Below are positions 3,252 through 34,676 of a DNA stretch of 54,425 nt, in pieces (position 1 is the first letter of the stretch; every line of letters begins with the position of its first letter). Source of the stretch: a virus (taxonomy: Duplodnaviria; Caudoviricetes). The stretch lies in the IMG/VR virus record IMGVR_UViG_3300031965_000039, positions 1 to 54,425 of that record; one strand, 5' to 3'. The position numbers and the translations under genes were made by a program. The notes under the pieces were generated by a model. It was not told the origin of the DNA and ran no database searches. It worked only from the letters and a program-made list of their open reading frames with translations.

Positions 3252-3420
3252 TGTTATGCTTCTCTATTGCACGCTTTGTTAGGCGTGATTTTATGCTGGC
3301 AATGCGTCCCCATAACGTAAGACCTTCATCAGCTTCACATCCATCAAGGATTGCTTCGGCATATTCAATTTCTGCGAGTAATTCTTCGCGGGTGAATTCA
3401 TTACGATTTCTACGAGACAT
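3208..3420 (-). CDS. hypothetical protein in attC-bounded cassette
   Basis: AGGAG SD; lies between GTTAGGCGT and ACGCCTAAC. Confidence 0.6.
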   Translation of the reverse strand: MSRRNRNEFTREELLAEIEYAEAILDGCEADEGLTLWGRIASIKSRLTKRAIEKHNNGNNQSCRRNRTAD

Positions 3421-3442
3421 GATTTTCTCCTAAACGCCTAAC
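3278..3442. mobile_element. integron-like gene cassette with attC half-sites
   Basis: Ends GTTAGGCGT (3278-3286) and ACGCCTAAC (3434-3442) are 9/9 complementary; each abuts a truncated attC-like arm. Confidence 0.55.
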
Positions 3443-3486
3443 GGTTTGCTTTACCTGCGCTTTGTGGTAGGCAACGTATGTTTGTT

Positions 3487-3876
3487 TTAAATGCCCAGAC
3501 TCTTTTTGCGTCTCATTTTATTTTTGCATTCAGGTGAATAATATTTTGAATTCCAAGACCATTTTATCAAACGCTTCTTGCATCCACATACACAGAATGC
3601 AATTTTGTTGATTGGGATTAGCATACCAGTAACATCACATGATTTGCCAAGTAAGAAACGCTCCCATTCTGTTTGTGTCGGATTGAGATCGCGCGATACC
3701 ATTACTCGTAGATTTGATGCTGTGATCCCCATCCATTCTGCTATTTCGCCATAAGTCATTTCGTGATCCTTTTTGTAGGCTAAAATAGCTGGTAGGTAAT
3801 ACGTACCGTCCAGACGGTTCTTTTTAGGTCTCATGTAGTTTGTAGCGTTTATAGCGTATGTCTTTCTAATATACAA
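3487..3876 (-). CDS. HTH protein with Cys-rich C-terminus
   Basis: MTYGEIAEWMGITASNL helix-turn-helix; CVCGC...YYSPEC. Confidence 0.55.
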   Translation of the reverse strand: MYIRKTYAINATNYMRPKKNRLDGTYYLPAILAYKKDHEMTYGEIAEWMGITASNLRVMVSRDLNPTQTEWERFLLGKSCDVTGMLIPINKIAFCVCGCKKRLIKWSWNSKYYSPECKNKMRRKKSLGI

Positions 3877-3929
3877 CAGAAGATAACCTGATTTGCAGAT
3901 AATTCACAGAAATAATCCTTGCTTTTTGG

Positions 3930-4124
3930 TTATTGATTTACAACTTTCAATATCTTTTCATGTCGGTCAAGTCTTTGGTTTGCCAATCGAAACATATCGG
4001 CATAAGTCATAGAGCGCTCAATCAGCTCCCCATCAACCAAATCGCAACGGTCATTACTTTCCTCATGTTCTTCAGAAAGCAACTGATTATAGTAATCAAG
4101 ATTTTCGTCCTTCCATGTTCCCAT
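3930..4124 (-). CDS. hypothetical protein
   Basis: Tightly packed in leftward operon. Confidence 0.55.
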   Translation of the reverse strand: MGTWKDENLDYYNQLLSEEHEESNDRCDLVDGELIERSMTYADMFRLANQRLDRHEKILKVVNQ

Positions 4125-4130
4125 TTTTTA

Positions 4131-4745
4131 TTATTTCTTGACTATTCCCTTGAATGCTGATTCAAAACTCAATAATTCATCTACAAATTTATCTATGCCA
4201 TCTTTCAAATTTGCAATAAATTTTTCGTCTCGTTCTACCCTATAAATGAATATATCCCGATAACGATTGCGAGGATCGTAACTTACAAAATCACTCCACT
4301 GTCTGCCAGTCACCCACAGCTCGCCTTGAATCTGTTTCATGTGCTCCGTTGGAACCACGCCGTCAATAATATACTTCACATGAGTATGGCTCGCTGGGCA
4401 TTTAATTTGCACCAAACCATCTTCACCTACAAGACTATCAGGCGATGCGCCAATGTTTTCATCCAGGGCCACAAACCCAACTTGACTTACTTCCTGGCCT
4501 GTTTCTAATTCATAGGCCAAACGTGCTCGCCATTCCCATTCATTCCCCCATTGAATATATTTTGAGGTATAACCGTTTTCGTCAATTTCACCAGTCAATC
4601 GTTCGGCGAGTAACTTGCACATATAGGCCATCCTCGTTTTACCTTCACCTTTAGCCAAGGCATCAGCAAAACAAGACGCAGTAACTTTCCCACGCCGAGC
4701 TTCATGCCATTCGGCAGTACCTTGAACGCACTCAATGATCTTCAC
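4131..4745 (-). CDS. YqaJ / lambda-exonuclease family recombination nuclease
   Basis: QGTAEWHEARRGKVTAS, GASPD, IKCP, QIQG motifs; GTG start overlaps ERF stop. Confidence 0.92.
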   Translation of the reverse strand: MKIIECVQGTAEWHEARRGKVTASCFADALAKGEGKTRMAYMCKLLAERLTGEIDENGYTSKYIQWGNEWEWRARLAYELETGQEVSQVGFVALDENIGASPDSLVGEDGLVQIKCPASHTHVKYIIDGVVPTEHMKQIQGELWVTGRQWSDFVSYDPRNRYRDIFIYRVERDEKFIANLKDGIDKFVDELLSFESAFKGIVKK

Positions 4746-5518
4746 TTTACGATCACTTTCTTTTGTTGATATCTGATAATTCGATTCTTGCATTGCTGAA
4801 AATCGCTCTCCTTCAAATCGGCAAGAGTTTCAATAGAATAAAACTGGCAAGTCTTTGTATAAAGTACTTCATCATTTGATCCGATTAACTTTTCGAGTTC
4901 CATTTTCTGATCATCTGAAATAGTTGTTTCATCACCTTTTTCGTTTCCACCGCGATTTCCGTCATCATCTTCACCAGCCGCCACCAAACCAAGCGCCATA
5001 AACAAACTGATTCGGCGCCCGTAACTAACTGATGAATTGACTTTTTGAATACTGTTCATTCTTTGAGTACCAGGATCAACCGGGGCCATAAAAGTAGCCG
5101 TGCGAGAATGTCCAAGAATATGTTTCACAGTACAAATAATCTTGACCTTATTATCTTCTGTGAATTCCCCATCAAAAGAATATGATAATTCGGATTCGGC
5201 TAATGGTTTTTGAATCAGTGGAATTACATCTTCGAGTGCAGCATACTTGAAATAAACTTTGCCACTTGTTGCATCTTTAGCTTCTGTCTTTTTTCCAATC
5301 ACCGGGCAAGAAGATTGAAATTTTGACATTGCTTCGTTAAAAGAACGTTCAGCAATCTGTTTATCATAACGTTCTTTCAAGGCAACTAAACGCTCAAGCG
5401 TTTCTACGTTAGAACCCTTTTCAACAGCAGCCATAAGAATCGTTTCAATCGAAGGGCTTTGAACTACAATCGATCTATTCGGATCTGTTTTAGTAAATAA
5501 TTCTTGAGTGTTTTCCAT
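4742..5518 (-). CDS. ERF family ssDNA-annealing protein
   Basis: FKYAALED, Q-SSVSYGRR-SL-ALGL-GEDDDG motifs. Confidence 0.9.
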   Translation of the reverse strand: MENTQELFTKTDPNRSIVVQSPSIETILMAAVEKGSNVETLERLVALKERYDKQIAERSFNEAMSKFQSSCPVIGKKTEAKDATSGKVYFKYAALEDVIPLIQKPLAESELSYSFDGEFTEDNKVKIICTVKHILGHSRTATFMAPVDPGTQRMNSIQKVNSSVSYGRRISLFMALGLVAAGEDDDGNRGGNEKGDETTISDDQKMELEKLIGSNDEVLYTKTCQFYSIETLADLKESDFQQCKNRIIRYQQKKVIVK

Positions 5519-5676
5519 AACGAATTCTCCTAAAGGGTTTTATATTTCTTGTGCAATTAAAATATCAAGTAATTTACAAAGATTTTCTAACCAAACCGCC
5601 AAACGTTCAATTTGGTTGGGACATCGAAAATGGTTCAGACATGCCAGCTTTCATAACTATCAAAAAAGATGGACAA

Positions 5677-5907
5677 CTATTGCAATAAACCTTGTTCATG
5701 TCGCTCTTTCACAAGAGGACAGTCAGTATATTTAACCATTTCTTCGTGCTCGGCCAGACACTTTATGCAAATTTCATCCTCTTTGATTCCTGGTAAATGT
5801 TTGTGCAACAACTCTAAATACCGGGCATCTTCTGGTAATTTTATATTTGGATCGTCTATGAAGCAAGCCATAACAAAGAAACCTAACTTTTGCTGCACTG
5901 GATGCAA
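5677..5907 (-). CDS. hypothetical protein
   Basis: ORF beginning inside/after attC-like site; start uncertain. Confidence 0.5.
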   Translation of the reverse strand: MHPVQQKLGFFVMACFIDDPNIKLPEDARYLELLHKHLPGIKEDEICIKCLAEHEEMVKYTDCPLVKERHEQGLLQ

Positions 5908-6012
5908 AAGCTGTGATTTTTAAAGATTGTCCAATGCATAATCCATAGTTCAGTTAATTATCGTTGCTCCTGACGCATTAAATCTTTTGCACCAGTGAGC
6001 ATTGCGTTAGCC
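5881..6012 (+). mobile_element. attC-like recombination site (complete)
   Basis: ACCTAAC-TTTT-GCT[G]CACTGG[A]TGCAAAAG ... CTTTTGCACCAGTGAGC-ATTGC-GTTAGCC: R boxes, unpaired spacers, two extrahelical bases. Confidence 0.8.
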
Positions 6013-6473
6013 GACCTTTGGCTTTCTTTCCATTCTTTGTATGCTGTTCTTTTTTGTTTCGCCACGGCTGTCAGTTCCCTGCGTTTTGCATTTATTTCCC
6101 GTCGCAGATTCCACTCTCTCGTATAGAGCCTCTCGTACTGGAGTCGCAGGTCGGCTAACAAGTCACCAGCTTTCTTGGTAGCTTTTGTGTTTGGTTCTAC
6201 GCTGCTTTCAGAGATGTAGTGACGCGCAGCATCATGCATGTTGCGGTAGTCCTCAAAGAACGAAATCAGGCGGTTGGTATCTCCCCCGAGCGCGCGGAAT
6301 TTCTTGTCGTAGTAGGTTTCCACGACGATGCAGCCATCCCGCCAAGACAGGAAATCTTCGCCATGATTTTCGAGAAATCGGACGAGCGCATCTAACAAGC
6401 CTGATGCAGCTAACGGCTCTCCCTCTCTGACTTCGTCGGGAGTCGTTGGTAATTGGTCATTCATTTTGGTCAC
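5958..6473 (-). CDS. hypothetical protein, apparent fusion of cassette modules
   Basis: Reads through attC-like arms at 6390, 6153 and 6006. Confidence 0.6.
   Translation of the reverse strand: MTKMNDQLPTTPDEVREGEPLAASGLLDALVRFLENHGEDFLSWRDGCIVVETYYDKKFRALGGDTNRLISFFEDYRNMHDAARHYISESSVEPNTKATKKAGDLLADLRLQYERLYTREWNLRREINAKRRELTAVAKQKRTAYKEWKESQRSANAMLTGAKDLMRQEQR
6006..6159. mobile_element. integron-like cassette
   Basis: Ends GTTAGCCGACCT (6006-6017) and AGGTCGGCTAAC (6148-6159) are 12/12 complementary. Confidence 0.65.
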
Positions 6474-6764
6474 TGTGTTTTCTCCTGGAGAGCGGCTTTT
6501 GAACGAATTGCCTTGACAGTTGCTATTATTTGGGCCGCAGCGTGATTTGTGAGACCGTCACCGTCGCCGCAGTGGTGATAAGCCGTGCCATAATGAGCAT
6601 CGAAAAGAATATCAAGAAGGTTTTCTAATTTCTGTACGTAAGCTTCTGAATTGTTCGTATTCAGTGACTGGATTGTTTTCATTTGAATTTCCTTTTTAAA
6701 GCGTTTCAAATGCATTTCTTTTTTGTTTACCATGGAGAGCCGTAGCTGATCCGGGTCGTTAGCA
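6390..6764 (+). mobile_element. attC-like site with ~310-nt loop
   Basis: ATCTAAC-AAGCCT-GAT[G]CAGCT[A]ACGGCTCTCC (6390-6422) pairs with GGAGAGCCGTAGCTGATC-CGGGTC-GTTAGCA (6734-6764). Confidence 0.7.
6470..6682 (-). CDS. hypothetical protein inside the attC-like loop
   Basis: MKTIQSLNT... preceded by AAGGA SD. Confidence 0.6.
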   Translation of the reverse strand: MKTIQSLNTNNSEAYVQKLENLLDILFDAHYGTAYHHCGDGDGLTNHAAAQIIATVKAIRSKAALQEKTQ

Positions 6765-6776
6765 CTCACTTTGTGC

Positions 6777-6992
6777 TCACCTTGATTCCGAGCTTTCAAG
6801 CAACTCATCGGCTCCGATGTCGGTATAAACCGCGTCGCTACTGTGGCCCATGTCGTCCTTCTCTCCAGTAATGACCATTACCGCTTTATGAATGTCTTTC
6901 TGTTTCTCGTTGTTGGCCTGCGCTAACGTAAGCAGCCTAATCAGTTGTAAGTACTCTGTTTTAGTTACTTTGGTTTTGTCTGTGTATTTCAT
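6777..6992 (-). CDS. hypothetical protein in cassette 6758-7011
   Basis: GGAG SD; cassette ends GTTAGCAC / GTGCTAAC 8/8 complementary. Confidence 0.65.
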   Translation of the reverse strand: MKYTDKTKVTKTEYLQLIRLLTLAQANNEKQKDIHKAVMVITGEKDDMGHSSDAVYTDIGADELLESSESR

Positions 6993-7004
6993 CTTTCTTC
7001 TCCG

Positions 7005-7058
7005 TGCTAACCAGCGATTCAAGCCGACGCGGTGTGACAGCGGCGGCAGTAGTTAAGC
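7005..7058 (+). mobile_element. truncated attC-like site
   Basis: TGCTAAC-CAGCG-ATTCAAGCCGACGC resembles classic attC left arm; ends GTTAAGC; L' box missing. Confidence 0.55.
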
Positions 7059-7063
7059 GGACA

Positions 7064-7252
7064 TTACCATGTTAACCGCACCATGCTTGGATTATCCGCC
7101 TTGAATCTTTCAGCAGGCATCTTGTTTGTTTTGATTGTTATATATAACCATCCGCTATTTTCTTCTACGTTTTCAACCAACGCAGGTGCAACTCTATCAT
7201 CGGGGTGCCGCCTAACTGGCGTCTGCTTCATCTTTTTCTCCTGTTGGTTCAT
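7064..7252 (-). CDS. hypothetical protein in cassette 7052-7216
   Basis: Ends GTTAAGCGG / CCGCCTAAC 8/9 complementary. Confidence 0.55.
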   Translation of the reverse strand: MNQQEKKMKQTPVRRHPDDRVAPALVENVEENSGWLYITIKTNKMPAERFKADNPSMVRLTW

Positions 7253-7535
7253 AAGTTAGATAGAATATATCGCATTTTACAGGGTAGAGTTCGCCCTTCA
7301 CACCACGAATGATCCAGTCACCCCACGAAACTAAGTGCTGACCTTCGAGCGTACCAATCGACAGCGTACCGTCTCCTGTTCCTTCTTCTGTCGGGTACAA
7401 CGAGCCAGGTGTTTCACGATCCAGTTGCCACGCCTGATGCATCCAGTTCGGCCAATCTACGTTGTTGGCGCGGCGCTCTTCGGTCATTTGGAATGCCTCG
7501 ATCACTACTGGCTTTTTGCGAAATTTCATGTTCAT
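7212..7535 (-). CDS. conserved phage protein (KKPVVIEA...TLEG...GDWII-GVKGE-YP)
   Basis: Recognisable widespread phage hypothetical motif set. Confidence 0.8.
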   Translation of the reverse strand: MNMKFRKKPVVIEAFQMTEERRANNVDWPNWMHQAWQLDRETPGSLYPTEEGTGDGTLSIGTLEGQHLVSWGDWIIRGVKGELYPVKCDIFYLTYEPTGEKDEADAS

Positions 7536-7554
7536 TTTTTCTCCCTTGTTCTCC

Positions 7555-7770
7555 TCAGAACTCATGGTTAATAAATTCTGAAAACATTTTTTCAACTACT
7601 TCCATCGCGCGTTCTTCACCGTAGTATTCGGTCAATTTTCCAATTGTGAAATTCTCCAACTCCCGCAAGGTATCGAAAAGAATCTGTTTGGTTTCTTCGG
7701 TAGCTTCATTGCGTGTGCTATCAAAATCAGCGGTTTGAATTTCTCTACGGGTATACCCTATGTCAGGCAC
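7555..7770 (-). CDS. hypothetical protein
   Basis: AGGAG SD, GTG start. Confidence 0.55.
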   Translation of the reverse strand: MPDIGYTRREIQTADFDSTRNEATEETKQILFDTLRELENFTIGKLTEYYGEERAMEVVEKMFSEFINHEF

Positions 7771-7881
7771 AGTAATTTCTCCTGTTTTTTAAGGCGCGGC
7801 TCGATTGCTTAGGCCTCTTTATCGTGAATAGCAAGTTCACCCTGACATACAACTTTCGGACTCTTAGTCTGCGGAATAAAA

Positions 7882-8097
7882 TTAAATTTCATTGGACTCT
7901 ATTTCTTCTAAGGCTTTGAGGGCTGCATAAAGTTTATGAGCAGATTCTTTTGAAATTGTAAAACTTATTTCCCACTCGTTAAGAATTTGATTTGCTGCCT
8001 TAATTAACTCCACGATTTCCTTAAATGCAATCTTTTCCAACTCCGCCGCATAGCACATTTCCGGTGTATAATTTTCCCAAGCTTGTTCTTTAGTCAT
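7882..8097 (-). CDS. hypothetical protein, paralog of 8094-8381
   Basis: Shared MTKEQAW start and ALKALEE end. Confidence 0.65.
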   Translation of the reverse strand: MTKEQAWENYTPEMCYAAELEKIAFKEIVELIKAANQILNEWEISFTISKESAHKLYAALKALEEIESNEI

Positions 8098-8381
8098 TGA
8101 TCGACCTCTTCTAAAGCTTTCAGAGCTTCGTCAAGCATGATACATTGCTGCGCATCATCTTGAAGATTCTCTTTCATAAACAACACAGCTTCTTCTGCTG
8201 CTGCTTGCAGGGCTGTGATTTTCCCGTTTAATGATTTCAGGATTTCCCGAATTTCATTTATATTATATTCGCGGGAATCATGGCCAGCATCAAAACCAGC
8301 GTAAAAAGATACGCGCTCACTCATACAATCCACATTTGATTTATATGGATTATATTTGTGCCAAGCTTGTTCTTTAGTCAC
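8094..8381 (-). CDS. hypothetical protein, paralog of 7882-8097
   Basis: Shared MTKEQAW start and ALKALEE end. Confidence 0.65.
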   Translation of the reverse strand: MTKEQAWHKYNPYKSNVDCMSERVSFYAGFDAGHDSREYNINEIREILKSLNGKITALQAAAEEAVLFMKENLQDDAQQCIMLDEALKALEEVDQ

Positions 8382-8572
8382 TTCTCTACCTCCACAAATT
8401 CAGGTAAAAACATCCAATGAGTTGGTCGTAAAGTATGACCATTAATTTTAAACAAACCATCTTCACCGAAATATGCAGTGGTATATCCCGAAATGTGAGG
8501 CCAGATCAAAACCTCGACAAGTCCTTCCTTTGAAACATCCGGCAACTCTGTTTTAACGTTTATCCAATCCAT
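8378..8572 (-). CDS. DUF551-like protein
   Basis: MDWINVKTELP...THWMFLPE. Confidence 0.8.
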   Translation of the reverse strand: MDWINVKTELPDVSKEGLVEVLIWPHISGYTTAYFGEDGLFKINGHTLRPTHWMFLPEFVEVEK

Positions 8573-8592
8573 TTATTTTGCCTCCACAAAAA

Positions 8593-8796
8593 TCATTTCA
8601 ATTCGGCTTCGCTAAGTTTTTTGTAAACCGATAGCATTTCAACTACGTCACCATTAGCGATTGCTTTTTCGGCGCGGTTAATATCGTACTTTAGTAAAGT
8701 TGCCCCGAAAATACCAGCAACCCCAATATCCTCATAAGATTTTAAAATCTTACGGCGGCGTTCGGCTTCTTTTTGCAATCCTTCAATCAGGTTCAT
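8593..8796 (-). CDS. hypothetical protein
   Basis: Overlapping start/stop packing. Confidence 0.6.
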   Translation of the reverse strand: MNLIEGLQKEAERRRKILKSYEDIGVAGIFGATLLKYDINRAEKAIANGDVVEMLSVYKKLSEAELK

Positions 8797-8957
8797 TCTA
8801 CCTGCACAAATTCAGCGTTAGGAAACTTCGCCCTAACCCGCGCATAAAATCGCTCAATGGTCTCGATTTTCTTGCGCCGAGCAATAACAACAGTTCGATT
8901 ATTAGACTCAAAAGGTAAAATGCGATAAGCGCTATTTTTTCTGAGTTCGATTATCAT
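8793..8957 (-). CDS. 54-aa hypothetical protein
   Basis: MIIELRKNSAYRILPFE...FPNAEFVQVE*; ATGA overlaps at both ends. Confidence 0.5.
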   Translation of the reverse strand: MIIELRKNSAYRILPFESNNRTVVIARRKKIETIERFYARVRAKFPNAEFVQVE

Positions 8958-9157
8958 AACTCACCATTTAAAATTTTTTCTGCTAATTCAAGCGGAATTT
9001 TTTTAATTGGTTGAGACTCATAATAAGAATCTAAAACCGCTTTAACATCTTCAGCGGTTATTTCTTTGCCAACTTTTTTTGAAGCTGCAAACGCGATCTT
9101 TTTCAATTCGATTATCACATTTTTCCTTTTATCAAAGACCAAACGCTTTTTTCCCAA
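8954..9157 (-). CDS. hypothetical protein
   Basis: Operon packing. Confidence 0.55.
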   Translation of the reverse strand: MGKKRLVFDKRKNVIIELKKIAFAASKKVGKEITAEDVKAVLDSYYESQPIKKIPLELAEKILNGEL

Positions 9158-9356
9158 GAATTACAACTATCTTGTCAAGATGCTTCCTCGGTGGAAGCCA
9201 TCTTCCTGACTCATAGCAACTTAAAGTACTACGCGAGATTCCTGTCTTTTCAGACAAATCTTTTTGAGATAAGTCCAGACCTATTCTGGCAAGTTTCATT
9301 TGCTTCCCAAGGAGGCGCATGGATTCCCTTACAGAGATAACATTTTCAGTTTTCAT
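9132..9356 (-). CDS. XRE-family HTH regulator (Cro-like)
   Basis: LSQKDLSEKTGISRSTLSCYESG; first gene after leftward promoter. Confidence 0.9.
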   Translation of the reverse strand: MKTENVISVRESMRLLGKQMKLARIGLDLSQKDLSEKTGISRSTLSCYESGRWLPPRKHLDKIVVILGKKAFGL

Positions 9357-9362
9357 ATTTCA

Positions 9363-9391
9363 ACTATACAAAATAATTTTTAGAAAGTCAA
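9363..9391 (-). promoter_or_regulatory. sigma70-type promoter, leftward
   Basis: TTGACT-N17-TATAGT. Confidence 0.75.
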
Positions 9392-9413
9392 GCAAAATTT
9401 TATAAAATAATTC

Positions 9414-9442
9414 TTGACTTTTAGGTGGGAGTTTAGTATACT
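9414..9442 (+). promoter_or_regulatory. sigma70-type promoter, rightward (divergent pair)
   Basis: TTGACT-N17-TATACT. Confidence 0.75.
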
Positions 9443-9475
9443 CTCGGAGTAAGTTTTTTTGAAAGGAATTTATAG

Positions 9476-9784
9476 ATGAGTAGTAGAAAACAACAAAACA
9501 ATAATAATGCTGCCGACAAAGCTGTCAAGTTGAGTAAATTGTTAGCCAGCAAGTATTGTGGCAAATGCGTTCACATCATAAACATCCCAGGTAACTGTCA
9601 TATCGGTTGCGCAAACTTAAACGCGAAGCCAACGCGAAAAATGTGGAAGGGCTGCGGAATATGGCCGCTCAACTTTGACACTGCGACCGTCGAATCGTGC
9701 GATGGCTACAGCGAGAACCAAAATGACGAAATTGACCGCAAAGAAACCCCACTGCTCGAACTGATGCGGCTTCTTGCTGGCTAA
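9476..9784 (+). CDS. Cys-rich hypothetical protein in cassette 9541-9785
   Basis: CGKC-H...HIGC...WPLNFD; ends GTTAGCCAGCAAG / CTTGCTGGCTAAT 12/13 complementary. Confidence 0.7.
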   Translation: MSSRKQQNNNNAADKAVKLSKLLASKYCGKCVHIINIPGNCHIGCANLNAKPTRKMWKGCGIWPLNFDTATVESCDGYSENQNDEIDRKETPLLELMRLLAG

Positions 9785-9915
9785 TAAGGTATTAACCCTC
9801 AAAGGAAAAGAAAATCAGTACTCCGCAGGGTGAGTTGTGGGGTGTATGATATATCGGAGAAAACATGAGTGGAGAACCAAAACAACATGAACTTAATAAC
9901 CAAATGGAGGTTCTC

Positions 9916-10098
9916 ATGGAAACAAAATTCAAGGTGCCTAAGTTGGCACCGAAGCTTGAACGACTTCACAAGGCCATCACTGCCCTGTGGGGCGCAAAAA
10001 TGAACATGAGTAAGATGGAACAACCTGAATTCAAGGACGCATTTGTTAAAACTGCTGAACGGCAGAAAGCGAGGATAAGGGGAATCATAAACGAATAA
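9916..10098 (+). CDS. hypothetical protein
   Basis: GGAGG SD before METKFK. Confidence 0.6.
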   Translation: METKFKVPKLAPKLERLHKAITALWGAKMNMSKMEQPEFKDAFVKTAERQKARIRGIINE

Positions 10099-10172
10099 AA
10101 AAAGAAATCTACGAGGGTAAATATTGGATGGAGACCTAACATCTATGAACTTAACTCCAATGGAGGTCTCAA

Positions 10173-11243
10173 ATGAACAACAAGGATTTAGGATTAGAAA
10201 AAGATAATGGCAAATTTGTCATTTGCGAAGGTAAACATCAATTTTGGAGAAGATTCGTCTGTTTCTTTAAATCAAGCTGGTATTTTGTGCGGCATGATTG
10301 GAACACATGGAAACAGCTTGCTAAGTACGGAATGCTTTTATTGCTGGTTTCAACGGGATTTACTCAAGAACGCGGTGAATTCTGGATTGAAACATTCAAA
10401 CCCGGCTCTTCCAGCCTTGTGGATGTCAATCAGAATACGCTCGTGTTTCTTGATACGCTGGCAGCAGATTCGTCTATCACCATCTGGTATCTTGGAGCCA
10501 GCGATTCAATGGACTGGTATATGAACGGTAAGAAAGTGAATTTTGAAATTGGCGAGGCATGGAATGATGCTAAGCGTTTGAGCCGAGCGCGCACTGTAGC
10601 GGCACTGTATAAAAGCAACCGTATCGGGGTTACTTATCACTCTAAACGGGGTGTCCTGGTTCAATGGGAGCGTATTCCAAAATTGGTTGAGGGTCCGACT
10701 GATGATTACGAGACTAATGGTGTTTACACGAAAATCGATACAGCTTATCTCTCATGGCTACCGTTTCGGATTCCGGATCATTTTGTTATAGTCTCGATTT
10801 CTTTGATTGATCCTTTGTTGAAAAACGACGAAGGCTATGACCTCAAAGAAGAAGTGATCGGCTATGAAGTCGGTTTATTCGCCAATGTCGCTAATAATAT
10901 TTATTTCGGAGTCGGTGCAGCCCACCGTTGGGACAAATGGGATCCGGATGCTGCGATGGAAGAATGGCGGACAACTTTCTTTGTGTCGGGCGCTATCAAG
11001 GCTGGTAAGGTCATGCTGTTCATATCACCTGGTTTGGCGTGGAACTATTTCCGCCATGATGGACTCGACCACGCTCGTGTTCGCGGAGCGTTCAGTGGGA
11101 AGATTGCATACCGGACCAAAGCTATGAAAGACCTTGACGTACTCGCCAGTTTCGGGGGAGATTGGATGGCCGTGAACGAATTTAACGTTCAAGACACCAA
11201 TCTTAACTTTGGTGTCGGAATCGGGTATCGGATATCAAATTAA
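10173..11243 (+). CDS. putative outer-membrane beta-barrel protein with OmpA-like N-terminal domain
   Basis: Signal-like LLLLVSTGFT/Q; G-SD...N...LSRARTV; amphipathic strands ending NFGVGIGYRI. Confidence 0.65.
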   Translation: MNNKDLGLEKDNGKFVICEGKHQFWRRFVCFFKSSWYFVRHDWNTWKQLAKYGMLLLLVSTGFTQERGEFWIETFKPGSSSLVDVNQNTLVFLDTLAADSSITIWYLGASDSMDWYMNGKKVNFEIGEAWNDAKRLSRARTVAALYKSNRIGVTYHSKRGVLVQWERIPKLVEGPTDDYETNGVYTKIDTAYLSWLPFRIPDHFVIVSISLIDPLLKNDEGYDLKEEVIGYEVGLFANVANNIYFGVGAAHRWDKWDPDAAMEEWRTTFFVSGAIKAGKVMLFISPGLAWNYFRHDGLDHARVRGAFSGKIAYRTKAMKDLDVLASFGGDWMAVNEFNVQDTNLNFGVGIGYRISN

Positions 11244-11258
11244 AAATGGGAGAAATAA

Positions 11259-11459
11259 ATGAGTAAAAATATTAATGGCATTGCAGTTATTTATGCAGAG
11301 GCAGAGCAACAATGTGATTTATGTGGCAACATATCCGAGCTTAGATCCTATGGCCATAACGGTGAATGTATTTGCTATGAATGCGGAATGAAGGACGAGA
11401 AAACAACTGATCGCATGATGGCTAAGGTTTTATTTGGGGTGGAGGATTTTGAGAGATGA
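11259..11459 (+). CDS. small zinc-finger protein
   Basis: CDLC...ELRSYG-NGECICYEC. Confidence 0.7.
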   Translation: MSKNINGIAVIYAEAEQQCDLCGNISELRSYGHNGECICYECGMKDEKTTDRMMAKVLFGVEDFER

Positions 11460-11860
11460 ACGTTTACTTCGGAACTACTGCTGCACCTAACTCATCACAT
11501 AAAGCTTCGGTAAGGCGCGATTGTCTGAAGTGTGAAAAAACTAAAATTGCTATACAAAAATTGCGCAATGTAATTGAAGCGGGCAATATGAAAGTAAACG
11601 AACTATGGGCACAAATTACGATTGGAGATGTAATTGAACTTTTCAAAGAAGTGCTTGATGATGATGACCAAACTTATGTTCGTAATATAACATCGGTTAT
11701 CTTTGACATTCCAGGTCAGCCATCGGTAGAGTTGACAGCAGATGAATTGAAAAAACTTGTCGTTGGCTATGACAAAAATAGATCAATGCCTCACACGGTA
11801 TTAATCTGCAAGGAATCAAAAAATGAAGATCACAAGAATTATTTGTCAAATCCTGTCTAA
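11456..11860 (+). CDS. hypothetical protein
   Basis: ATGA overlap, 134 aa. Confidence 0.55.
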   Translation: MNVYFGTTAAPNSSHKASVRRDCLKCEKTKIAIQKLRNVIEAGNMKVNELWAQITIGDVIELFKEVLDDDDQTYVRNITSVIFDIPGQPSVELTADELKKLVVGYDKNRSMPHTVLICKESKNEDHKNYLSNPV

Positions 11861-12341
11861 TGAAAAGCAGATGGGCCAAATTGTTTTGTTCGGAATAATT
11901 ATAGCTCTGCTCATCTGGACGGCTTGCGACAACTATCCGACTGAAGTCGCCACATCGCGGCCATTCAGGGTCGAAAACAAAGGGACAATCCGCTTTAACA
12001 ACAACACGGTCGTCAGTTTCGTTTTTGACATTTATGGAGGCGGTCCAACTTATAAGATAAGTTTTGACTATGACGCTGACGGAGATCACGATGACGGCAA
12101 GCTGACGGTGACACGCCGAAGTGATAAGGAGCCGTTTGGAATAATAACTCCTGGAGTGGCTTTGGTGGCGATACCTTCAAACGTTGTCAGAATTTTGATT
12201 TTCGATGTCAGTAGTTCAAAAGATACTACTTTGACAACTCAAATTAGAACGACGGCGCCGGATGCAGTTCTGGAAATCAATCTCGGCACGGAAGGATTCG
12301 ACTTCCATTATGCACCCCAAAACAAACCAAAAAGGAGCTAA
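11823..12341 (+). CDS. lipoprotein
   Basis: Hydrophobic stretch ending WTAC; beta-rich body. Confidence 0.65.
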   Translation: MKITRIICQILSNEKQMGQIVLFGIIIALLIWTACDNYPTEVATSRPFRVENKGTIRFNNNTVVSFVFDIYGGGPTYKISFDYDADGDHDDGKLTVTRRSDKEPFGIITPGVALVAIPSNVVRILIFDVSSSKDTTLTTQIRTTAPDAVLEINLGTEGFDFHYAPQNKPKRS

Positions 12342-12342
12342 C

Positions 12343-12534
12343 ATGAATCTATACAAATTGATATCATCGACGGTTGATGACGAGAAGAGATTTGGAAGGT
12401 CAAGATACGCAAGGTATAATGTACTTGCCAATACTCTCTCGGAAGCAATCGAAAAAGTGAAACCATCTTTGTCAAATGAACTGAAGGAGTACATTGACGA
12501 AGCCGAGATCATTGCCATGATTGACGTAGAATAG
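12343..12534 (+). CDS. hypothetical protein
   Basis: AGGAG SD before MNLYKL. Confidence 0.6.
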   Translation: MNLYKLISSTVDDEKRFGRSRYARYNVLANTLSEAIEKVKPSLSNELKEYIDEAEIIAMIDVE

Positions 12535-12600
12535 CCCCAATGCCGGCGCGGTGTGCGTTTACAGGAAAGGCCAACGAGTTCCGAGATGTCGGTTCCGTGC

Positions 12601-12628
12601 GTAGGTTCAAATCCTGCCAGTCTCACTA
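12601..12628 (+). other. tRNA 3'-end-like fragment
   Basis: GTAGG-TTCAAAT-CCTGC T-arm then CAGTCTC-A-CTA; no matching 5' acceptor strand found. Confidence 0.5.
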
Positions 12629-12717
12629 AAAATTGTCAGGGGGACAAGTGGGAAAATGTCCATTTTGCGGGAAGTGAAAATACAGAAATTGAGAAACAAA
12701 CCTATGGAGGTTTTTGC

Positions 12718-12885
12718 ATGAAATTAACAGATGCCGTAAAGACGGAAAAGGTTAATGTAAGTTCAGGGAGCAACTCGATTTATTTTGACGAAAGTTCTTC
12801 GAATTGGGTTGTGCTGACAAGGCACTATAAGGCCAGGCACAATATAGTTTTAGACGAAGCGGTGAAGGTGTTGCTTGAAGGATAA
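12718..12885 (+). CDS. hypothetical protein
   Basis: GGAGG SD before MKLTDA; stop lies in attC-like R box. Confidence 0.6.
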   Translation: MKLTDAVKTEKVNVSSGSNSIYFDESSSNWVVLTRHYKARHNIVLDEAVKVLLEG

Positions 12886-13009
12886 CGCTCGCTTCACGCG
12901 TGGCGGGAGAAGAAGCAAGGAACGTCAAAGTAAAAATAAACTATGATTACGAACAAAACAGACCCGAAAAGCCGGTGCCCCGCCGGCGCTGTGCAAGCGG
13001 TCGTTAGGT
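12880..13009 (-). mobile_element. attC-like site (complete)
   Basis: On + strand GGATAAC-GCTCG-CTTCACGCGTGGCGGG ... CCCGCCGGCGC[T]GTG[C]AAG-CGGTC-GTTAGGT. Confidence 0.75.
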
Positions 13010-13016
13010 GTAGATT

Positions 13017-13283
13017 ATGTCAAACATTGAACAAACTAAAGATGGACTGATTGAAAAATCGTCAGGGCGCAAGATTGAAAGTCCGTTGGATTATGTTGAA
13101 AAAAGCAATGATGTCCTTTCTGCATTACAAAGCGCAATTGGTTCACTACGTCATGTTACTCTTTATAGTTCGCAAATCAATACAAGAGAGCAATGCCAAG
13201 AAATGATAGAGGCATTGCAAGATCGAGTCGATGCTGCCGTAAAAGCAAGAATATTATTTGCCAAGAATAGCGACCGTGTGTGA
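13017..13283 (+). CDS. hypothetical protein
   Basis: Starts just after attC-like site. Confidence 0.6.
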   Translation: MSNIEQTKDGLIEKSSGRKIESPLDYVEKSNDVLSALQSAIGSLRHVTLYSSQINTREQCQEMIEALQDRVDAAVKARILFAKNSDRV

Positions 13284-13544
13284 TTATGATGGTTTAATCG
13301 GAGTGTGGATTGAAGAACTATCTGAAATTTTTTCAAAGCAAGGACATAGTGGAACAAGCGCTGAAATAACGCTGGCATTATTTAATCAGCTTATGGATGA
13401 ATATAAAACACCAGGGATCAGTTGATTAAAAATAATGAGAAACTTATGAAAGTAGAAATTCCATTTCCAGAATGCCAGGATAGAGAATTTGCCGAACGTG
13501 CCTGGCATTGCTTGCAAGTTTTTAAGAGGTAAACTAAAAACAAA

Positions 13545-14078
13545 GTGAACGAGTGTATCATGGAACGGCCAGATCTTGAAATAATAGTAACCTTTGAGAA
13601 GATGCTGGCTGAATACTGCGGATCAAAGTATGCTGTTTCTGTTGACTGCGGCACTCATGCCATTGAACTTGCTTTGAGATTGGTTAAACCGCCTATAGTT
13701 TTTATTCCGCGGAACGAATATCGTTCCGTTATCAATGTTGTTCGCCGGCTTGACTTGGAAATGGAATGGACAGAATCACGGGAATTGCCGTTTGAATTGA
13801 CACGGAATCCTTCCGTTTTTGATGCTTGTGGAATTCTGCCAAGATTTGAATCTTTTGTAAATGAAAACTCTATTGTTTGCCTCTCTTTTACAGGAGCAAG
13901 AAAACCTATTAACATGCCAAAAGGCGGAGCGATTCTTTGCAACAATATTGCAGCACGGGATTGGTTTCTCGCAATGCGATGGCATGGAACTGAGACTGAG
14001 CCAGGCTTATATTACTGGCTATCACCAGAAGATGCAGCGCATGGGATTAGAGTTTTGACTGATTTGATGTATAAATAA
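13545..14078 (+). CDS. short DegT/DnrJ/EryC1/StrS-like PLP protein
   Basis: FEKMLAEYCGSKYAVSVDCGTHAIELAL; CLSF...K...GGAIL. Confidence 0.8.
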   Translation: MNECIMERPDLEIIVTFEKMLAEYCGSKYAVSVDCGTHAIELALRLVKPPIVFIPRNEYRSVINVVRRLDLEMEWTESRELPFELTRNPSVFDACGILPRFESFVNENSIVCLSFTGARKPINMPKGGAILCNNIAARDWFLAMRWHGTETEPGLYYWLSPEDAAHGIRVLTDLMYK

Positions 14079-14097
14079 AATTTGAGAGGACTTCAAC

Positions 14098-14703
14098 ATG
14101 ATACAAAACAGTTTTCCAATGATTGAAAAAGTCGAGAACATTAATTTGCAAGGAGAATGGCTTGAACCATTGAAACGGATCGAACCGAGACTGCAAGCAG
14201 CAGGAATAAATGCTTTTTACAATGTTCTTCATAAACACAATGATCTTCAAGATGGCGAAATTTACGTTCGGCATAGAGTCGGGAAAGGATTGAAGGAAGT
14301 GGAATTCGTCAAGCCGATGCAAGAGCCAAAACGAAGTGTCTTACTACCAAATTCGTTTGTGATCGTCAATGACTGGATTTGGCCAGTAGTGTGGGCTATT
14401 CCTGAAGATGCACCACAACTCCCAAATATTGAAATGTTGAAGCTAATCGTTTCCGCACTTCTTGAAACTGGGAAAGCAAAACAGATTGGTTTCACGCTTT
14501 TGCCGAGACCACAATTGACGGCCCCGGAAGGAAAGACTTGGATGGAGAAACAGATCGGAAACCGTATCCTTGAAACTAAACTATGGAATATTGAAACGGA
14601 TGGAAAGGCAAAAATAACTAATTTCACTTCCGATGGAGCTTTCAGAAAATGCAAGAATTGTAGTTTGTATTCTGACGGAACGCACTCAAAGGGATCACAT
14701 TAA
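14098..14703 (+). CDS. hypothetical protein
   Basis: GAGGA SD, 201 aa. Confidence 0.65.
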   Translation: MIQNSFPMIEKVENINLQGEWLEPLKRIEPRLQAAGINAFYNVLHKHNDLQDGEIYVRHRVGKGLKEVEFVKPMQEPKRSVLLPNSFVIVNDWIWPVVWAIPEDAPQLPNIEMLKLIVSALLETGKAKQIGFTLLPRPQLTAPEGKTWMEKQIGNRILETKLWNIETDGKAKITNFTSDGAFRKCKNCSLYSDGTHSKGSH

Positions 14704-14820
14704 TAAAATGCGCCCCAGTAAATAAACCTGCGATAAAGAGTGGTGTCTGGTCGCGGAGTTATTTTGAACAACTGGGGCGCTTAAATTTATGTTAGGCAAC
14801 TAAAACGAGGAACTTTTATT

Positions 14821-15042
14821 ATGAGAAAGATGCAGCGCATGGTTAGGTGTGCTTTCACGGCATCCGAAGCCAATCACATCCTTAGCCTAATAGCATGTAA
14901 TGAGCGCAACGGCGAACATACCGCGCCTCAAGACCAATACTGGAAACGGAGCGAACGCATAAAGACCAAGCTCGCCAGCATACCGAACGACAAGTTGAGG
15001 GGCGGGACGCTTTACCAGCGTCCCGCTCGAACGGAAAGTTAG
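14821..15042 (+). CDS. hypothetical protein in cassette 14842-14988
   Basis: Ends GTTAGGTGTGCT / AGCATACCGAAC 10/12 complementary; C-terminus encoded by attC-like site. Confidence 0.6.
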   Translation: MRKMQRMVRCAFTASEANHILSLIACNERNGEHTAPQDQYWKRSERIKTKLASIPNDKLRGGTLYQRPARTES

Positions 15043-15044
15043 GC
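14982..15044 (-). mobile_element. attC-like site (63 bp, complete)
   Basis: On + strand ACCGAAC-GACAA-GTTGAGGGGCGGGACGCT-TTACC-AGCGTCCCGCTC[G]AAC-GGAAA-GTTAGGC. Confidence 0.8.
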
Positions 15045-15068
15045 CCAGCCTTAACAACGGAGAAAGAC

Positions 15069-15278
15069 ATGGACACAAAAACGAAACGCAAATACCTAAG
15101 AGACTATACCTGTGCCGCGCGCAACTTAGAACTTGCTGGTGTTGCATTAACAATCCTTGAGGGGATGAATACACGGGAGGCGGCATCCGCTGTCAACGCA
15201 CTGCAACGCGGGCAGAAACGACAATTAAAACTTTTGGACGCGGCGGCGGCGAAACTTGGCGTTCCTTACGGGGCATAA
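15069..15278 (+). CDS. hypothetical protein in cassette 15038-15279
   Basis: GGAG SD; ends GTTAGGCCC / GGGCATAAC 8/9 complementary; stop within R box. Confidence 0.7.
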   Translation: MDTKTKRKYLRDYTCAARNLELAGVALTILEGMNTREAASAVNALQRGQKRQLKLLDAAAAKLGVPYGA

Positions 15279-15401
15279 CGCGAGCATCACGCGCAAAAGG
15301 AAAAAGAACAGTGAATGAAGAAAGCAAACTGAAACCTGATAAAGGCATTGAACTAACCCAAGAGCACGCAGCCCTTTTGTCGCGTGAATGCGAAGTTAGA
15401 C
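15273..15401 (-). mobile_element. attC-like site (complete)
   Basis: On + strand GCATAAC-GCGAG-CATCACGCGCAAAAGG ... CCTTTTG[T]CGCGTG[A]ATG-CGAA-GTTAGAC; same geometry as 5881-6012. Confidence 0.8.
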
Positions 15402-15482
15402 CAAAAGCATATTTAATATGATTCAAACTGTTTGATTTTGGTTATGAACTTGGTGTTTGTCTTTGTGAGGAACAAAAAATCC

Positions 15483-15554: not shown

Positions 15555-15653
15555 TGCAAATAAGGTGTTTAAAGCCCTTAATGGTAGGGGTTTGTGAAAT
15601 CCTTATTTGCAGATATTCATAAGCAAATCCCTACCACTGAGGGTTTTTATTTT
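15555..15653 (+). promoter_or_regulatory. structured leader / attenuator
   Basis: Long stem 15572-15594 with 15624-15646 plus T-rich tail; second helix 15555-15565 with 15601-15611. Confidence 0.55.
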
Positions 15654-19920: not shown

Positions 19921-19993
19921 GCTGGTATAGCTCAATTGGTAGAGCGTCTGATTTGTAATCAGATGGTTGTGGGTTCAAGTCCTACTGCCAGCT
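19921..19993 (+). tRNA. tRNA-Thr (anticodon TGT)
   Basis: Full cloverleaf: GCTGGTA/TGCCAGC, GCTC/GAGC, TCTGA-TTTGTAA-TCAGA, GTGGG-TTCAAGT-CCTAC; CCA not encoded. Confidence 0.95.
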
Positions 19994-34659: not shown

Positions 34660-34676
34660 CAAGAGGAGCAAATATA

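What the first reader, a model, noticed from the sequence alone, without database searches (positions are those of the whole stretch)
3278..15401. Accessory arms built from integron-like cassettes without an integron integrase
Seen: five attC-like folds with R boxes, unpaired spacers and extrahelical bases (5881-6012, 6390-6764, 12880-13009, 14982-15044, 15273-15401) and a truncated one (7005-7058). Seven segments have complementary GTT.../...AAC ends as expected for cassettes: 3278-3442 (9/9), 6006-6159 (12/12), 6758-7011 (8/8), 7052-7216 (8/9), 9541-9785 (12/13), 14842-14988 (10/12), 15038-15279 (8/9). Several are chained into arrays (5.9-7.2 kb, 14.8-15.4 kb). No tyrosine recombinase is visible. 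Inference: the phage gains and shuffles small genes using a host IntI in trans, a CALIN-like phage cassette system.
Basis: partly seen in the sequence, partly recalled or inferred. Interest (0 to 1): 0.88.

Follow-up and report, generated by a model that had tools for sequence, protein, structure and literature searches.

The report
Integron attC cassettes in a soil phage
The early region of this uncultivated soil phage holds five genuine integron recombination sites (attC) that bound small gene cassettes but no integrase, a rare arrangement already described in a few phages, here partly decayed and with the sites facing the opposite way to the genes compared with a classical integron.

Summary
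The core observation holds. I built a covariance model (R3) only from attC sites of other records. It finds the attC sites of a class 1 integron and of phage TJE1.

One site, 6389-6764, is an ordinary 130-nt attC split by a 244-nt insertion. Together with the gene beside it, it is 86% identical to a cassette that sits in dense attC arrays in metagenome contigs. Identity starts at the R box.

The "truncated" site and three of the seven "complementary-end" segments are not above chance. The other four are anchored on supported sites and match the signature I measured in real arrays.

The window has no tyrosine recombinase, but the record is estimated 62% complete.

In all five sites the recombinogenic bottom strand is the coding strand. 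That is the reverse of class 1 and TJE1, and the same as in several IMG/VR arrays, one of which lies next to an intI.

Decay is visible: an insertion, site remnants and read-through ORFs. This argues for past capture more than active shuffling.

Clusters of attC sites lacking an integrase (CALINs) were published for phages in 2023, so this is a new member of a known kind.

The parts
5880..6012 (-). attC site e1. R boxes are CTAAC/GTTAG. The unpaired spacer is 4/3 nt. The 3' arm carries two bulged bases (T and C) 6 bp apart. The loop is about 80 nt.
   Evidence: R3 20.6 bits, E 0.0065. R2 17.9 bits. Fold.
6389..6764 (-). attC site e2. It has the same geometry as e1, but its loop is split by an insertion, giving 376 nt in all.
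   Evidence: R3 32.1 bits. The L028 attC at 467-596 scores 51-58 bits. L028 470-497 equals window 6761-6734 at 28/28, and L028 491-772 equals window 6493-6213 at 85.8%. Alignment A4.
6490..6733 (-). 244-nt insertion in the loop of e2, flanked by a 7-nt direct repeat (GCTCTCC). It carries most of a 70-aa ORF (6470-6682). Its GC is 40%, like the phage backbone.
   Evidence: Alignment with L028 and L029. Sequence. GC. ORF frame checked.
6174..6464 (-). Core of 'gene C', a conserved protein of about 95 aa. Its start codon lies inside the loop of e2. GC is 51%.
   Evidence: 20 homologues, mostly 94-105 aa, cover only 36-56% of the 171-aa window ORF, apart from a 99%-identical full-length copy. 14 metagenome loci carry it. 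R2 hits at E<=0.01 on the gene's strand occur in 12 of them, all but the ~1-kb L038 and L039.
6152..6195 (-). Probable decayed attC (44 nt), at the place where relatives of gene C have their downstream attC. Its 3' R box plus flank (6148-6159) is 12/12 complementary to the 5' R box plus flank of e1 (6006-6017).
   Evidence: R3 11.5 bits and R2 9.6 bits, both at noise level. The 12/12 pair is the only one of its length in the window; pairs of 11 or more average 0.17 per shuffle. In L034 an attC starts 19 nt after the end of homology.
5958..6173 (-). Read-through tail of the gene C ORF (about 70 aa), which no short homologue has. It runs through the remnant site and into e1.
   Evidence: Alignment A3.
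7004..7060 (-). Both R boxes are present with a weak 9-bp hairpin. It may be a remnant. Its 3' box (7004-7011) is 8/8 complementary to the 5' box of e2 (6758-6765).
   Evidence: No model hit. Fold. The 8/8 pair is listed. Weak.
6777..6992 (-). 71-aa ORF between the 7004-7060 remnant and e2, with a Shine-Dalgarno sequence directly after the GTTAG box. The cassette has 48% GC.
   Evidence: No Pfam, PHROG or IMG/VR relative.
5677..5871 (-). 64-aa ORF directly downstream of e1.
   Evidence: No PHROG hit.
12880..13010 (+). attC site e3, lying between genes.
   Evidence: R3 33.5 bits, E 6e-6. R2 20.6 bits. Fold.
14842..14853 (+). R-box-like remnant (GTTAGGTGTGCT), 10/12 complementary to the 5' box of e4 (14977-14988). 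Its first 9 bases equal the 3' box of e3.
   Evidence: Sequence. R3 8.9 bits for 14800-14849, at noise level. Weak.
14982..15045 (+). attC site e4, a short 64-nt type. It lies inside the 3' end of ORF 14821-15042, whose stop codon falls in the 3' R box.
   Evidence: R3 33.0 bits. R2 24.5 bits. Fold.
15069..15278 (+). 69-aa ORF of the cleanest cassette (14988-15278, 53% GC). Its TAA stop is the TAA of the 5' R box of e5. The cassette ends (15038-15046 and 15270-15279) are 8/9 complementary.
   Evidence: No relatives found.
15273..15402 (+). attC site e5. The spacer is 4/3 nt and the 3' arm has bulged T and A 6 bp apart. It is the last site of the right-hand cluster, and a promoter-like region follows it.
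   Evidence: R3 21.8 bits. R2 19.7 bits. Fold.

Best explanation
The two arms of the phage's early region each hold a short cluster of genuine integron attC sites that mark off small gene cassettes. These are integrase-less attC clusters (CALINs) inside a phage genome.

SHOWN:
- Five sites match an attC model built without them.
- One cassette (attC e2 plus the gene C core) belongs to a cassette family found in dense attC arrays elsewhere.
- The cassettes are richer in GC than the phage backbone.
- Cassette ends that abut supported sites carry the complementary-end signature of real arrays.
- In all five sites the strand with the bulged bases on its 3' arm, which is the recombinogenic bottom strand, is the coding strand.

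INFERRED:
- The cassettes entered by integron-integrase recombination. IntI binds the folded bottom strand and cuts between A and C of the 5' AAC. It then joins the site to another attC, or to a GTT-type secondary site in the phage DNA.
- The enzyme came in trans, from a host integron or a co-resident element. Some viral contigs with the same kind of array do encode IntI.
- If replication starts at the divergent early control region, where cumulative GC skew is lowest, the bottom strands lie on the lagging-strand template in both arms. That favours folding.
- Much of the array now looks fixed rather than active. One site is split by an insertion, two or three are reduced to remnants, and two ORFs read through former cassette borders.
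For: MODEL.
- Independent model R3: five hits of 20.6-33.5 bits against at most 12.1 bits of noise in the window, and at most 15.3 bits in about 90 kb of control viral DNA.
- Validity: R2 finds both attC sites of a class 1 integron at 41.6 and 32.4 bits. R3 finds exactly 3 sites in phage TJE1 at 20.8-26 bits. The paper reports a 3-site cluster in TJE1 and IntI1 recombination of five of six tested phage sites (PMC9892861, section 3.4).
- 9 of 12 modelled pairs show compensatory changes in alignment A2.

SHARED CASSETTE.
-. Identity to L028 begins at TAAC of the R box, and the upstream sequences differ.

COMPOSITION.
- Cassettes have 47-53% GC. The window has 42% and neighbouring genes 38-42%.

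END SIGNATURE IN 83 REFERENCE SITES.
- Between a site's 3' box and the next site's 5' box, contiguous complementarity averages 8.6 and is 7 or more in 52 of 65 pairs.
- Within a single site it averages 4.2 and is 7 or more in 11 of 83.
- The class 1 control gives 11.
- In the window, e4 to e5 gives 8/10, and there are pairs of 12/12, 8/8 and 10/12.

POLARITY.
- The model strand is the intI strand in L011, L022, L025, L026 and L042.
- Bulged bases lie near L'' on the bottom strand (PMC5027507, passages).

LAGGING STRAND.
- A bottom strand on the lagging-strand template favours folding (PMC13108822, passage).
- The GC-skew minimum is at 9-10 kb.

NO RECOMBINASE.
Against: - Between consecutive supported sites the end signature is weaker than in reference arrays: e3 to e4 7/10 and e2 to e1 6/10, against a mean of 8.8/10.
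- e1 and e5 score only 20.6-21.8 bits, while active-looking arrays score 30-67 bits.
- e2 is 376 nt long, outside the variable-loop range of 20-100 nt quoted for attC.
- Only one of the cassettes has a relative that I could trace to an array. Two others had none in IMG/VR.
- No excision joint or length variant appeared. Only Logan contigs could be laid, from runs that may be the source of this DNA.
- IntegronFinder's own model was not available.
- E-values from my models are rough because calibration was shortened.
- The record is estimated 62% complete, so a phage-borne intI cannot be excluded.
- The replication origin is not known.
Confidence: 0.75

Rival explanations
1. An active phage cassette system. 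A host IntI now excises, inserts and reorders these cassettes during infection, so gene content in both arms turns over quickly.
For: Four sites look intact, with scores equal to or above the TJE1 sites that recombine in the published assay (PMC9892861). If replication starts near 9.5 kb, the bottom strands would lie on the lagging-strand template. The cassette at 14988-15278 has clean ends.
Against: There is an insertion in e2, there are remnants at 6152-6195 and 7004-7060, and two ORFs read across former borders. No joints were seen, though the test was weak. No host or IntI has been identified.
Confidence: 0.3
2. Capture as a block without IntI acting on the phage. A stretch of a host or phage attC array was picked up by illegitimate or homologous recombination, possibly by the phage's own ERF/YqaJ system, and the sites are passengers.
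For: ERF and YqaJ recombination genes sit beside the left-hand cluster. YqaJ also sits inside the array of L019. Complementary cassette ends would survive block capture, so they do not discriminate. The published paper raises off-target recombination as a route (PMC9892861).
Against: There are two separate clusters of opposite polarity, each matching the local direction of transcription, so at least two events with the right orientation are needed. The border of the shared cassette lies at the R box.
Confidence: 0.2
3. The phage carries its own integron integrase in the part of the genome missing from this record, so this is a complete phage integron.
For: The record is estimated 62% complete. 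One of the five attC-bearing viral records searched (G002, 91% complete) encodes an IntI over the TIGR02249 cut-off right beside its array.
Against: The window runs from lysis genes (lysozyme at 1570-2133) through the early, replication and structural genes into tail genes. The gap therefore falls in the late region, far from both clusters. Three of the five searched records are 93-100% complete and lack IntI.
Confidence: 0.1
4. Look-alikes: phage hairpins such as terminators or RNA processing sites that resemble attC by chance.
For: All five lie at or near gene ends, on the transcribed strand. Published work notes that attC sites may act as weak terminators (PMC9892861).
Against: Model scores stand far above noise. 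e2 is homologous to an attC in a dense array. The AAC/GTT boxes, the spacer and the bulge spacing all match.
Confidence: 0.03

Closest known systems
Clusters of attC sites lacking an integrase (CALINs) in phage genomes (Qi et al. 2023, PMC9892861)
   Same: attC sites with small ORFs inside phage genomes and no intI. Site scores under my model are like those of TJE1. That paper also reports several ORFs between some sites and divergent site directions in one phage.
   Different: In TJE1, 3 of 3 sites lie on the strand opposite the annotated genes, which is the classical polarity. In the window, 5 of 5 lie on the gene strand. The window also has two clusters of opposite direction flanking the early control region, one site split by an insertion, and remnants. 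I could not see that paper's supplementary tables of the other clusters.
Bacterial CALIN and single-attC (SALIN) elements, and insertion of cassettes at attG sites (Cury et al. 2016, PMC4889954; Loot et al. preprint 10.1101/2022.09.11.507474)
   Same: attC sites without an integrase. The proposed origin is IntI-mediated insertion outside an integron, with later loss of the folded sites (passages).
   Different: The host replicon here is a phage. No insertion-point consensus could be tested.
Class 1 mobile integron cassette array (control locus L042: intI1, dfrA17, aadA5)
   Same: The same site architecture, found by the same model. The same complementary-end signature, 11 contiguous bases.
   Different: Class 1 has intI1 and attI, and its ORFs lie on the strand opposite the bottom strand. 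The window has no integrase, and its ORFs lie on the bottom strand.
attC arrays in IMG/VR viral contigs and metagenome contigs found here (L011 with intI, L015, L019, L020, L028-L041)
   Same: The bottom strand is the coding strand. One cassette is shared. A YqaJ gene sits next to or inside the array in L019, as in the window.
   Different: Those arrays are dense, with 7-16 sites per locus, higher scores of 30-67 bits and 55-62% GC. The phages are not related to this one: portal and helicase searches found nothing beyond one weak helicase hit at E 3.4e-4.

Membership tests
integron attC recombination site | Conserved AAC and GTT triplets in paired R boxes at the two ends | tested here: met
   All five sites. 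AAC and GTT are invariant in reference alignment A2.
integron attC recombination site | Imperfect hairpin with an unpaired central spacer, bulged bases on the L'' arm and a variable loop (features as described in PMC5027507) | tested here: met
   e1, e2 and e5 have a 3-5 nt spacer and two bulged bases 6 bp apart on the 3' arm. e3 and e4 have the spacer but an irregular bulge pattern.
integron attC recombination site | Match to an attC covariance model | tested here: met
   My own models R2 and R3, validated on class 1 and TJE1 sites. IntegronFinder's attC_4 model was not available, so the standard test itself was not run.
integron attC recombination site | Size in the known range (variable loop of 20-100 nt) | tested here: inconclusive
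   Four sites are 64-133 nt. e2 is 376 nt because of a 244-nt insertion.
integron attC recombination site | Recombined by an integron integrase, with the bottom strand preferred | not testable with these tools
   Needs the attC x attI conjugation assay.
CALIN (cluster of attC sites lacking an integron integrase; IntegronFinder definition) | At least 2 attC sites less than 4 kb apart on one strand | tested here: met
   + strand: 12880, 14982 and 15273. - strand: 6389-6764 and 5880-6012. The second cluster depends on the over-long e2.
CALIN (cluster of attC sites lacking an integron integrase; IntegronFinder definition) | No integron integrase nearby | tested here: met
   No TIGR02249 or PF00589 match anywhere in the 54.4-kb window.
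complete integron | intI gene with an adjacent attI site and Pc promoter | tested here: not met
   No intI. attI and Pc were not searched for. The record is incomplete.
integron gene cassette | The 3' R box of one site is complementary to the 5' R box of the next site, because both come from the same circular cassette | tested here: inconclusive
   In reference arrays, 52 of 65 pairs have 7 or more contiguous bases. In the window, 12/12, 8/8, 10/12 and 8/9 occur where one partner is a remnant or a supported site, but only 3-5 contiguous bases between consecutive supported sites.
integron gene cassette | ORF on the top strand, followed by its attC (classical orientation) | tested here: not met
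   In 3 of 3 inter-site intervals the longer ORF is on the model (bottom) strand. The opposite holds in class 1, in the genome-bin loci L025 (8 opposite, 0 same, 4 ties) and L026 (3 opposite, 0 same), and in TJE1.

The most novel reading that the evidence does not exclude
The window belongs to a so far undescribed, co-directional form of attC array that is common in soil viral contigs.

In this form the genes are written on the recombinogenic bottom strand, so each cassette is 'attC first, gene second', sometimes with the start codon inside the attC loop. Where an integrase is present (L011, and L022 at 73% identity), it lies on the same strand at the downstream end of the array.

Such arrays would share a cassette pool, including the gene C family, that differs from the pool of classical bacterial integrons.

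Because phage genes tend to run with replication, this polarity would put the bottom strand on the lagging-strand template and favour cassette turnover.

For: in arrays of this type, ORF strand calls were 23 on the model strand, 0 opposite and 37 ties. In the classical controls (L025, L026, L042) they were 0 on the model strand, 12 opposite and 4 ties. Pfam-supported genes in L019 lie on the model strand.

Against: there are many ties in GC-rich DNA. TJE1 is classical. The metagenome arrays have no assigned replicon. My two literature searches cannot show that the arrangement is not in print.
Probability: 0.3. Interest if true: 0.75.

Novelty: new member of a known kind. Interest (0 to 1): 0.55.

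Why it matters
Phage-borne attC sites link two gene-exchange systems that are usually treated apart: integron cassettes and phage mosaicism. Qi et al. found integrons or integron parts in 21 of 10,705 sequenced phages, so each clear case adds to a thin record.

This case comes from an uncultivated soil phage and adds three things:
- Direct sequence evidence that a phage gene with its attC also circulates in dense attC arrays.
- A view of how such cassettes decay and become ordinary phage genes, through loop insertion, site loss and read-through fusion.
- A polarity opposite to the textbook integron. If this proves general in viral arrays, it bears on how cassettes are expressed and how easily the sites fold during phage replication.

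It also shows that a careful reading of raw sequence can recover attC sites to the base.

Tried and rejected
- **Crude arm-complementarity scanner.** It ranked e1, e3 and e5 near the top but did not separate them from chance pairs, so I dropped it.
- **Global GTTAG/CTAAC counts.** They are not enriched: 46 and 36 observed against 37.8 and 34.0 expected. The motif alone is no evidence.
- **Rfam.** It found only a tRNA and reported no attC-like family.
- **Model R1.** It contains the window's own sites and sites found with a pattern taken from them. Its high scores for e1, e3 and e5 are circular, so I used it only to discover arrays.
- **Pattern scan of IMG/VR.** It gave 13 loci, about what chance would give for 19 fixed bases (my estimate, no call). 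8 of the 13 fold as attC sites and led to the arrays.
- **34653-34725(-).** It scored 16.6 bits with R2, fell to 10.9 with R3 and lacks a spacer and bulges. I treat it as a false positive.
- **Close relatives of the phage.** None in the phage collection by DNA or by the 356-aa protein. The terminase matches below 60% identity, 27-30% in the best listed rows. ERF relatives reach only 37-40%. The 356-aa protein, the 69-aa cassette ORF and the 71-aa ORF have none in IMG/VR. Gain or loss at the sites could therefore not be compared.
- **Reads.** Two soil-metagenome runs hold the stretch, but only as contigs, and both may be its source. One 13.5-kb contig spans 2832-16363 with no joints or variants. 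This says nothing about rare circles.
- **Function of the cassette proteins.** Pfam and PHROG searches of the cassette ORFs gave nothing, apart from a truncated DegT-like N-terminus in 13545-14078.
- **Shine-Dalgarno plus start codon inside the attC loop as a general rule.** It holds for only a minority of sites, so I do not claim it.
- **Other attC-bearing viral contigs.** They are not relatives of this phage.
- **e2's 3' R box as a recombination border.** Homology to L030-L041 starts there. This could instead reflect fast divergence of the attC relative to the protein-coding core. I leave it open.
- **Supplements of PMC9892861 were not available.** They list the other phage clusters and their borders and might include a relative or mention polarity.

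Full report
**What the window is.**
- It is a whole IMG/VR virus record of 54,425 bases, classed linear and estimated 62% complete. Two soil-metagenome runs hold it.
- It is a tailed phage. It has a lysozyme at 1570-2133, and a terminase, portal and major head protein at 27-35 kb.
- The early region is divergent.
  - Minus-strand genes run from 9356 down to 2892 and include ERF (4742-5518) and YqaJ (4131-4793).
  - Plus-strand genes run from 9476 and lead to a DnaD-like loader and a DnaB-like helicase at 16-17.6 kb.
- Cumulative GC skew is lowest at 9-10 kb.
- No close relative exists in the phage collection or IMG/VR.

**Checking the folds.**
- Folding as DNA showed that 5880-6012 (minus strand), 12880-13010 and 15273-15402 (plus strand) share one design.
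  - The ends are TAAC and GTTA, paired.
  - Next comes a 3-4 nt unpaired spacer.
  - Then a stem whose 3' arm carries bulged bases. In 5880-6012 and 15273-15402 there are two, 6 bp apart. In 12880-13010 the pattern is irregular.
  - The loop is 70-80 nt.
- This is the attC design described in print. On the bottom strand there are R boxes with AAC and GTT, an unpaired central spacer, extrahelical bases near L'' and a variable terminal structure (PMC5027507, passages).
- A pattern taken from the three sites hit 13 IMG/VR loci, and 8 of them fold the same way.
- Model R1, built from these 11 sequences, then uncovered arrays of same-strand hits in L019, L015, L011, L010 and L020. Because R1 contains window sequence, I used it only for discovery.

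**Independent models and controls.**
- One array-bearing viral record (L011, in G002) has an integron integrase over the TIGR02249 cut-off next to its array.
- Its relatives in genome bins (L022, L025, L026) also have hits upstream of intI, on the intI strand.
- R2 was built from 20 sites that are neither from the window nor from the pattern search. 9 of its 12 pairs show compensatory changes.
- In a class 1 integron (intI1, dfrA17, aadA5), R2 finds both attC sites at 41.6 and 32.4 bits. They lie on the intI1 strand, opposite the cassette genes. The model is therefore general, and it models the bottom strand.
- R3 was built from 42 sites in loci reached only through protein homology.
- Over the whole window, both strands, filters off, R3 gives five hits: 33.5, 33.0, 32.1, 21.8 and 20.6 bits. 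These fall at 12880-13010(+), 14982-15045(+), 6389-6764(-), 15273-15402(+) and 5880-6012(-). Nothing else exceeds 12.1 bits.
- R3's training set contains homologues of the 6389-6764 site, so that hit is partly homology.
- About 90 kb of unrelated viral DNA gives at most 15.3 bits.
- R3 finds exactly three sites in phage TJE1, at 20.8-26 bits. The published cluster there has three sites, and five of six tested phage sites recombined with IntI1 (PMC9892861).
- The 'truncated' site at 7005-7058 gets no hit.

**The shared cassette.**
- The ORF at 5958-6473 (171 aa) has 20 database homologues. Apart from a 99%-identical copy, they cover only its first 95-100 residues, and most are 94-105 aa long.
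- Fourteen metagenome contigs encode this core.
- Twelve of them also carry attC sites scoring up to 59.5 bits, on the same strand as the gene. In several, the gene sits inside a dense array.
- In L028 the attC at 467-596 is a normal 130-nt site.
  - Its 5' arm equals window 6761-6734 at 28 of 28.
  - The stretch from its loop into the gene equals window 6493-6213 at 85.8%.
- The window's 376-nt site is thus this attC with 244 nt inserted in the loop. The insertion spans 6490-6733, is flanked by a 7-nt direct repeat, has 40% GC and carries most of a 70-aa ORF.
- Identity with L028 starts at TAAC of the R box, and the sequences upstream differ. This is what cassette exchange predicts.
- After the conserved core, relatives have their next attC. 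In L034 it starts 19 nt after the homology ends.
- At that place the window has only a 44-nt remnant, at 6152-6195, which scores at noise level. The ORF reads on for about 70 codons into the next site.

**Complementary ends.**
- I measured this signature in 83 reference sites.
  - The 3' box of one site and the 5' box of the next are complementary over 8.6 contiguous bases on average. The run is 7 or more in 52 of 65 pairs and 10 or more in 31.
  - The two boxes of a single site average 4.2, with 7 or more in 11 of 83.
  - The class 1 control gives 11.
- In the window as a whole, however, GTT...AAC pairs of 8 or more occur 12 times, against 7.8 in shuffles. An unanchored 8/8 or 9/9 pair means little.
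- Four of the seven segments are anchored on supported sites: 6006-6159 (12/12), 6758-7011 (8/8), 14842-14988 (10/12) and 15038-15279 (8/9).
- Three are not: 3278-3442, 7052-7216 and 9541-9785.
- Between consecutive supported sites the signature is weak, at 3-5 contiguous bases. This fits lost or decayed sites in between, namely 6152-6195, 7004-7060 and the box at 14842.
- Cassette segments have 47-53% GC, against 38-42% for neighbouring phage genes.

**Polarity.**
- In all five sites the bottom strand is the local coding strand. In 3 of 3 inter-site intervals the longer ORF lies on that strand.
- The class 1 control and the genome-bin arrays show the classical opposite arrangement: L025 has 0 same, 8 opposite and 4 ties, and L026 has 0 same and 3 opposite. 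So do TJE1's three sites.
- The viral and gene-C arrays behave like the window: 23 intervals on the model strand, none opposite and 37 ties.
- Other support:
  - GC3-supported ORFs lie mostly on the model strand.
  - Two Pfam-supported genes lie on the model strand in L019.
  - The gene C family itself lies on the model strand.
- In L011 the intI lies on the same strand, at the downstream end of the array.
- Published work shows that a bottom strand on the lagging-strand template folds and recombines more readily (PMC13108822, passage).
- If this phage replicates outward from its early control region, both clusters would have that orientation. This is inference only.

**Integrase.** No TIGR02249 or PF00589 match exists in the window. 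The record's ends fall in lysis and tail genes, so the missing part is probably late genes. That is not proof.

**Verdict.**
- The finding is real: integrase-less integron cassette clusters in a phage.
- The idea that a host IntI moves them is reasonable but untested. The visible decay suggests that much of the array is now fixed.
- The phenomenon was published in 2023, so I rate this a new member of a known kind.
- Two extras are worth following up: the traced cassette and the reversed polarity.

**Limits.** IntegronFinder was not available. Only contigs, not raw reads, could be laid.

Noticed in passing
L011 4690-5646 (-) and attC hits from 5831 to 9155 (-): An IMG/VR viral record (G002, 91% complete) encodes an integron integrase over the TIGR02249 cut-off. 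Nine attC sites lie immediately upstream on the same strand, and the supported ORFs run the same way. A Polyangiaceae genome-bin contig (L022) has a 73%-identical IntI with the same layout.
   Followed up: partly
L019 4400-12295 (+): A 93%-complete viral record carries at least 16 attC sites on one strand within 8 kb, interleaved with tightly packed small genes. A YqaJ-family gene sits inside the array, the same recombination-module neighbourhood as in the window.
   Followed up: partly
window 6490-6733: A 244-nt segment of phage-like composition, flanked by a 7-nt direct repeat, sits in the loop of an attC and brings in a small ORF. I did not examine how it got there: microhomology, or a small mobile unit.
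   Followed up: partly
window 14710-14780: A perfect 10-bp inverted repeat with a 51-nt loop lies in the gap after gene 14098-14703 and is followed by a GTTAGG box at 14791. It looks like an attC without bulged bases and with AAT in place of AAC. No model hit.
   Followed up: partly
window 13545-14078: A 177-aa ORF matches only the first 60 or so positions of the 360-position DegT/DnrJ/EryC1 aminotransferase family. It is possibly a gene fragment lying between two attC sites.
   Followed up: no
window 17908-18648: A pentapeptide-repeat protein is encoded just after the replication genes.
   Followed up: no
window 19921-19993: A tRNA gene, the only Rfam hit in the window.
   Followed up: no
window 15571-15647: A 24-nt inverted repeat, 83% complementary, overlaps the start of gene 15594-15956, downstream of a TTGACA-type promoter-like site near 15484.
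   Followed up: no
P0010 (homologue of the gene C core): One homologue of the conserved cassette protein is fused to a PF14354 domain (recalled to be a restriction-alleviation family). This hints at an anti-defence role for the family.
   Followed up: no
L045 30004-30059 (-): In Polaribacter phage P12002L the only near-threshold hit of my model (15.8 bits) lies between two methyltransferase genes and on their strand. That is the same polarity as the window and unlike TJE1.
   Followed up: no
P0001: A 99%-identical copy of the 171-aa read-through ORF is on record from a 55,950-nt contig, so a near-identical phage exists in another assembly.
   Followed up: no
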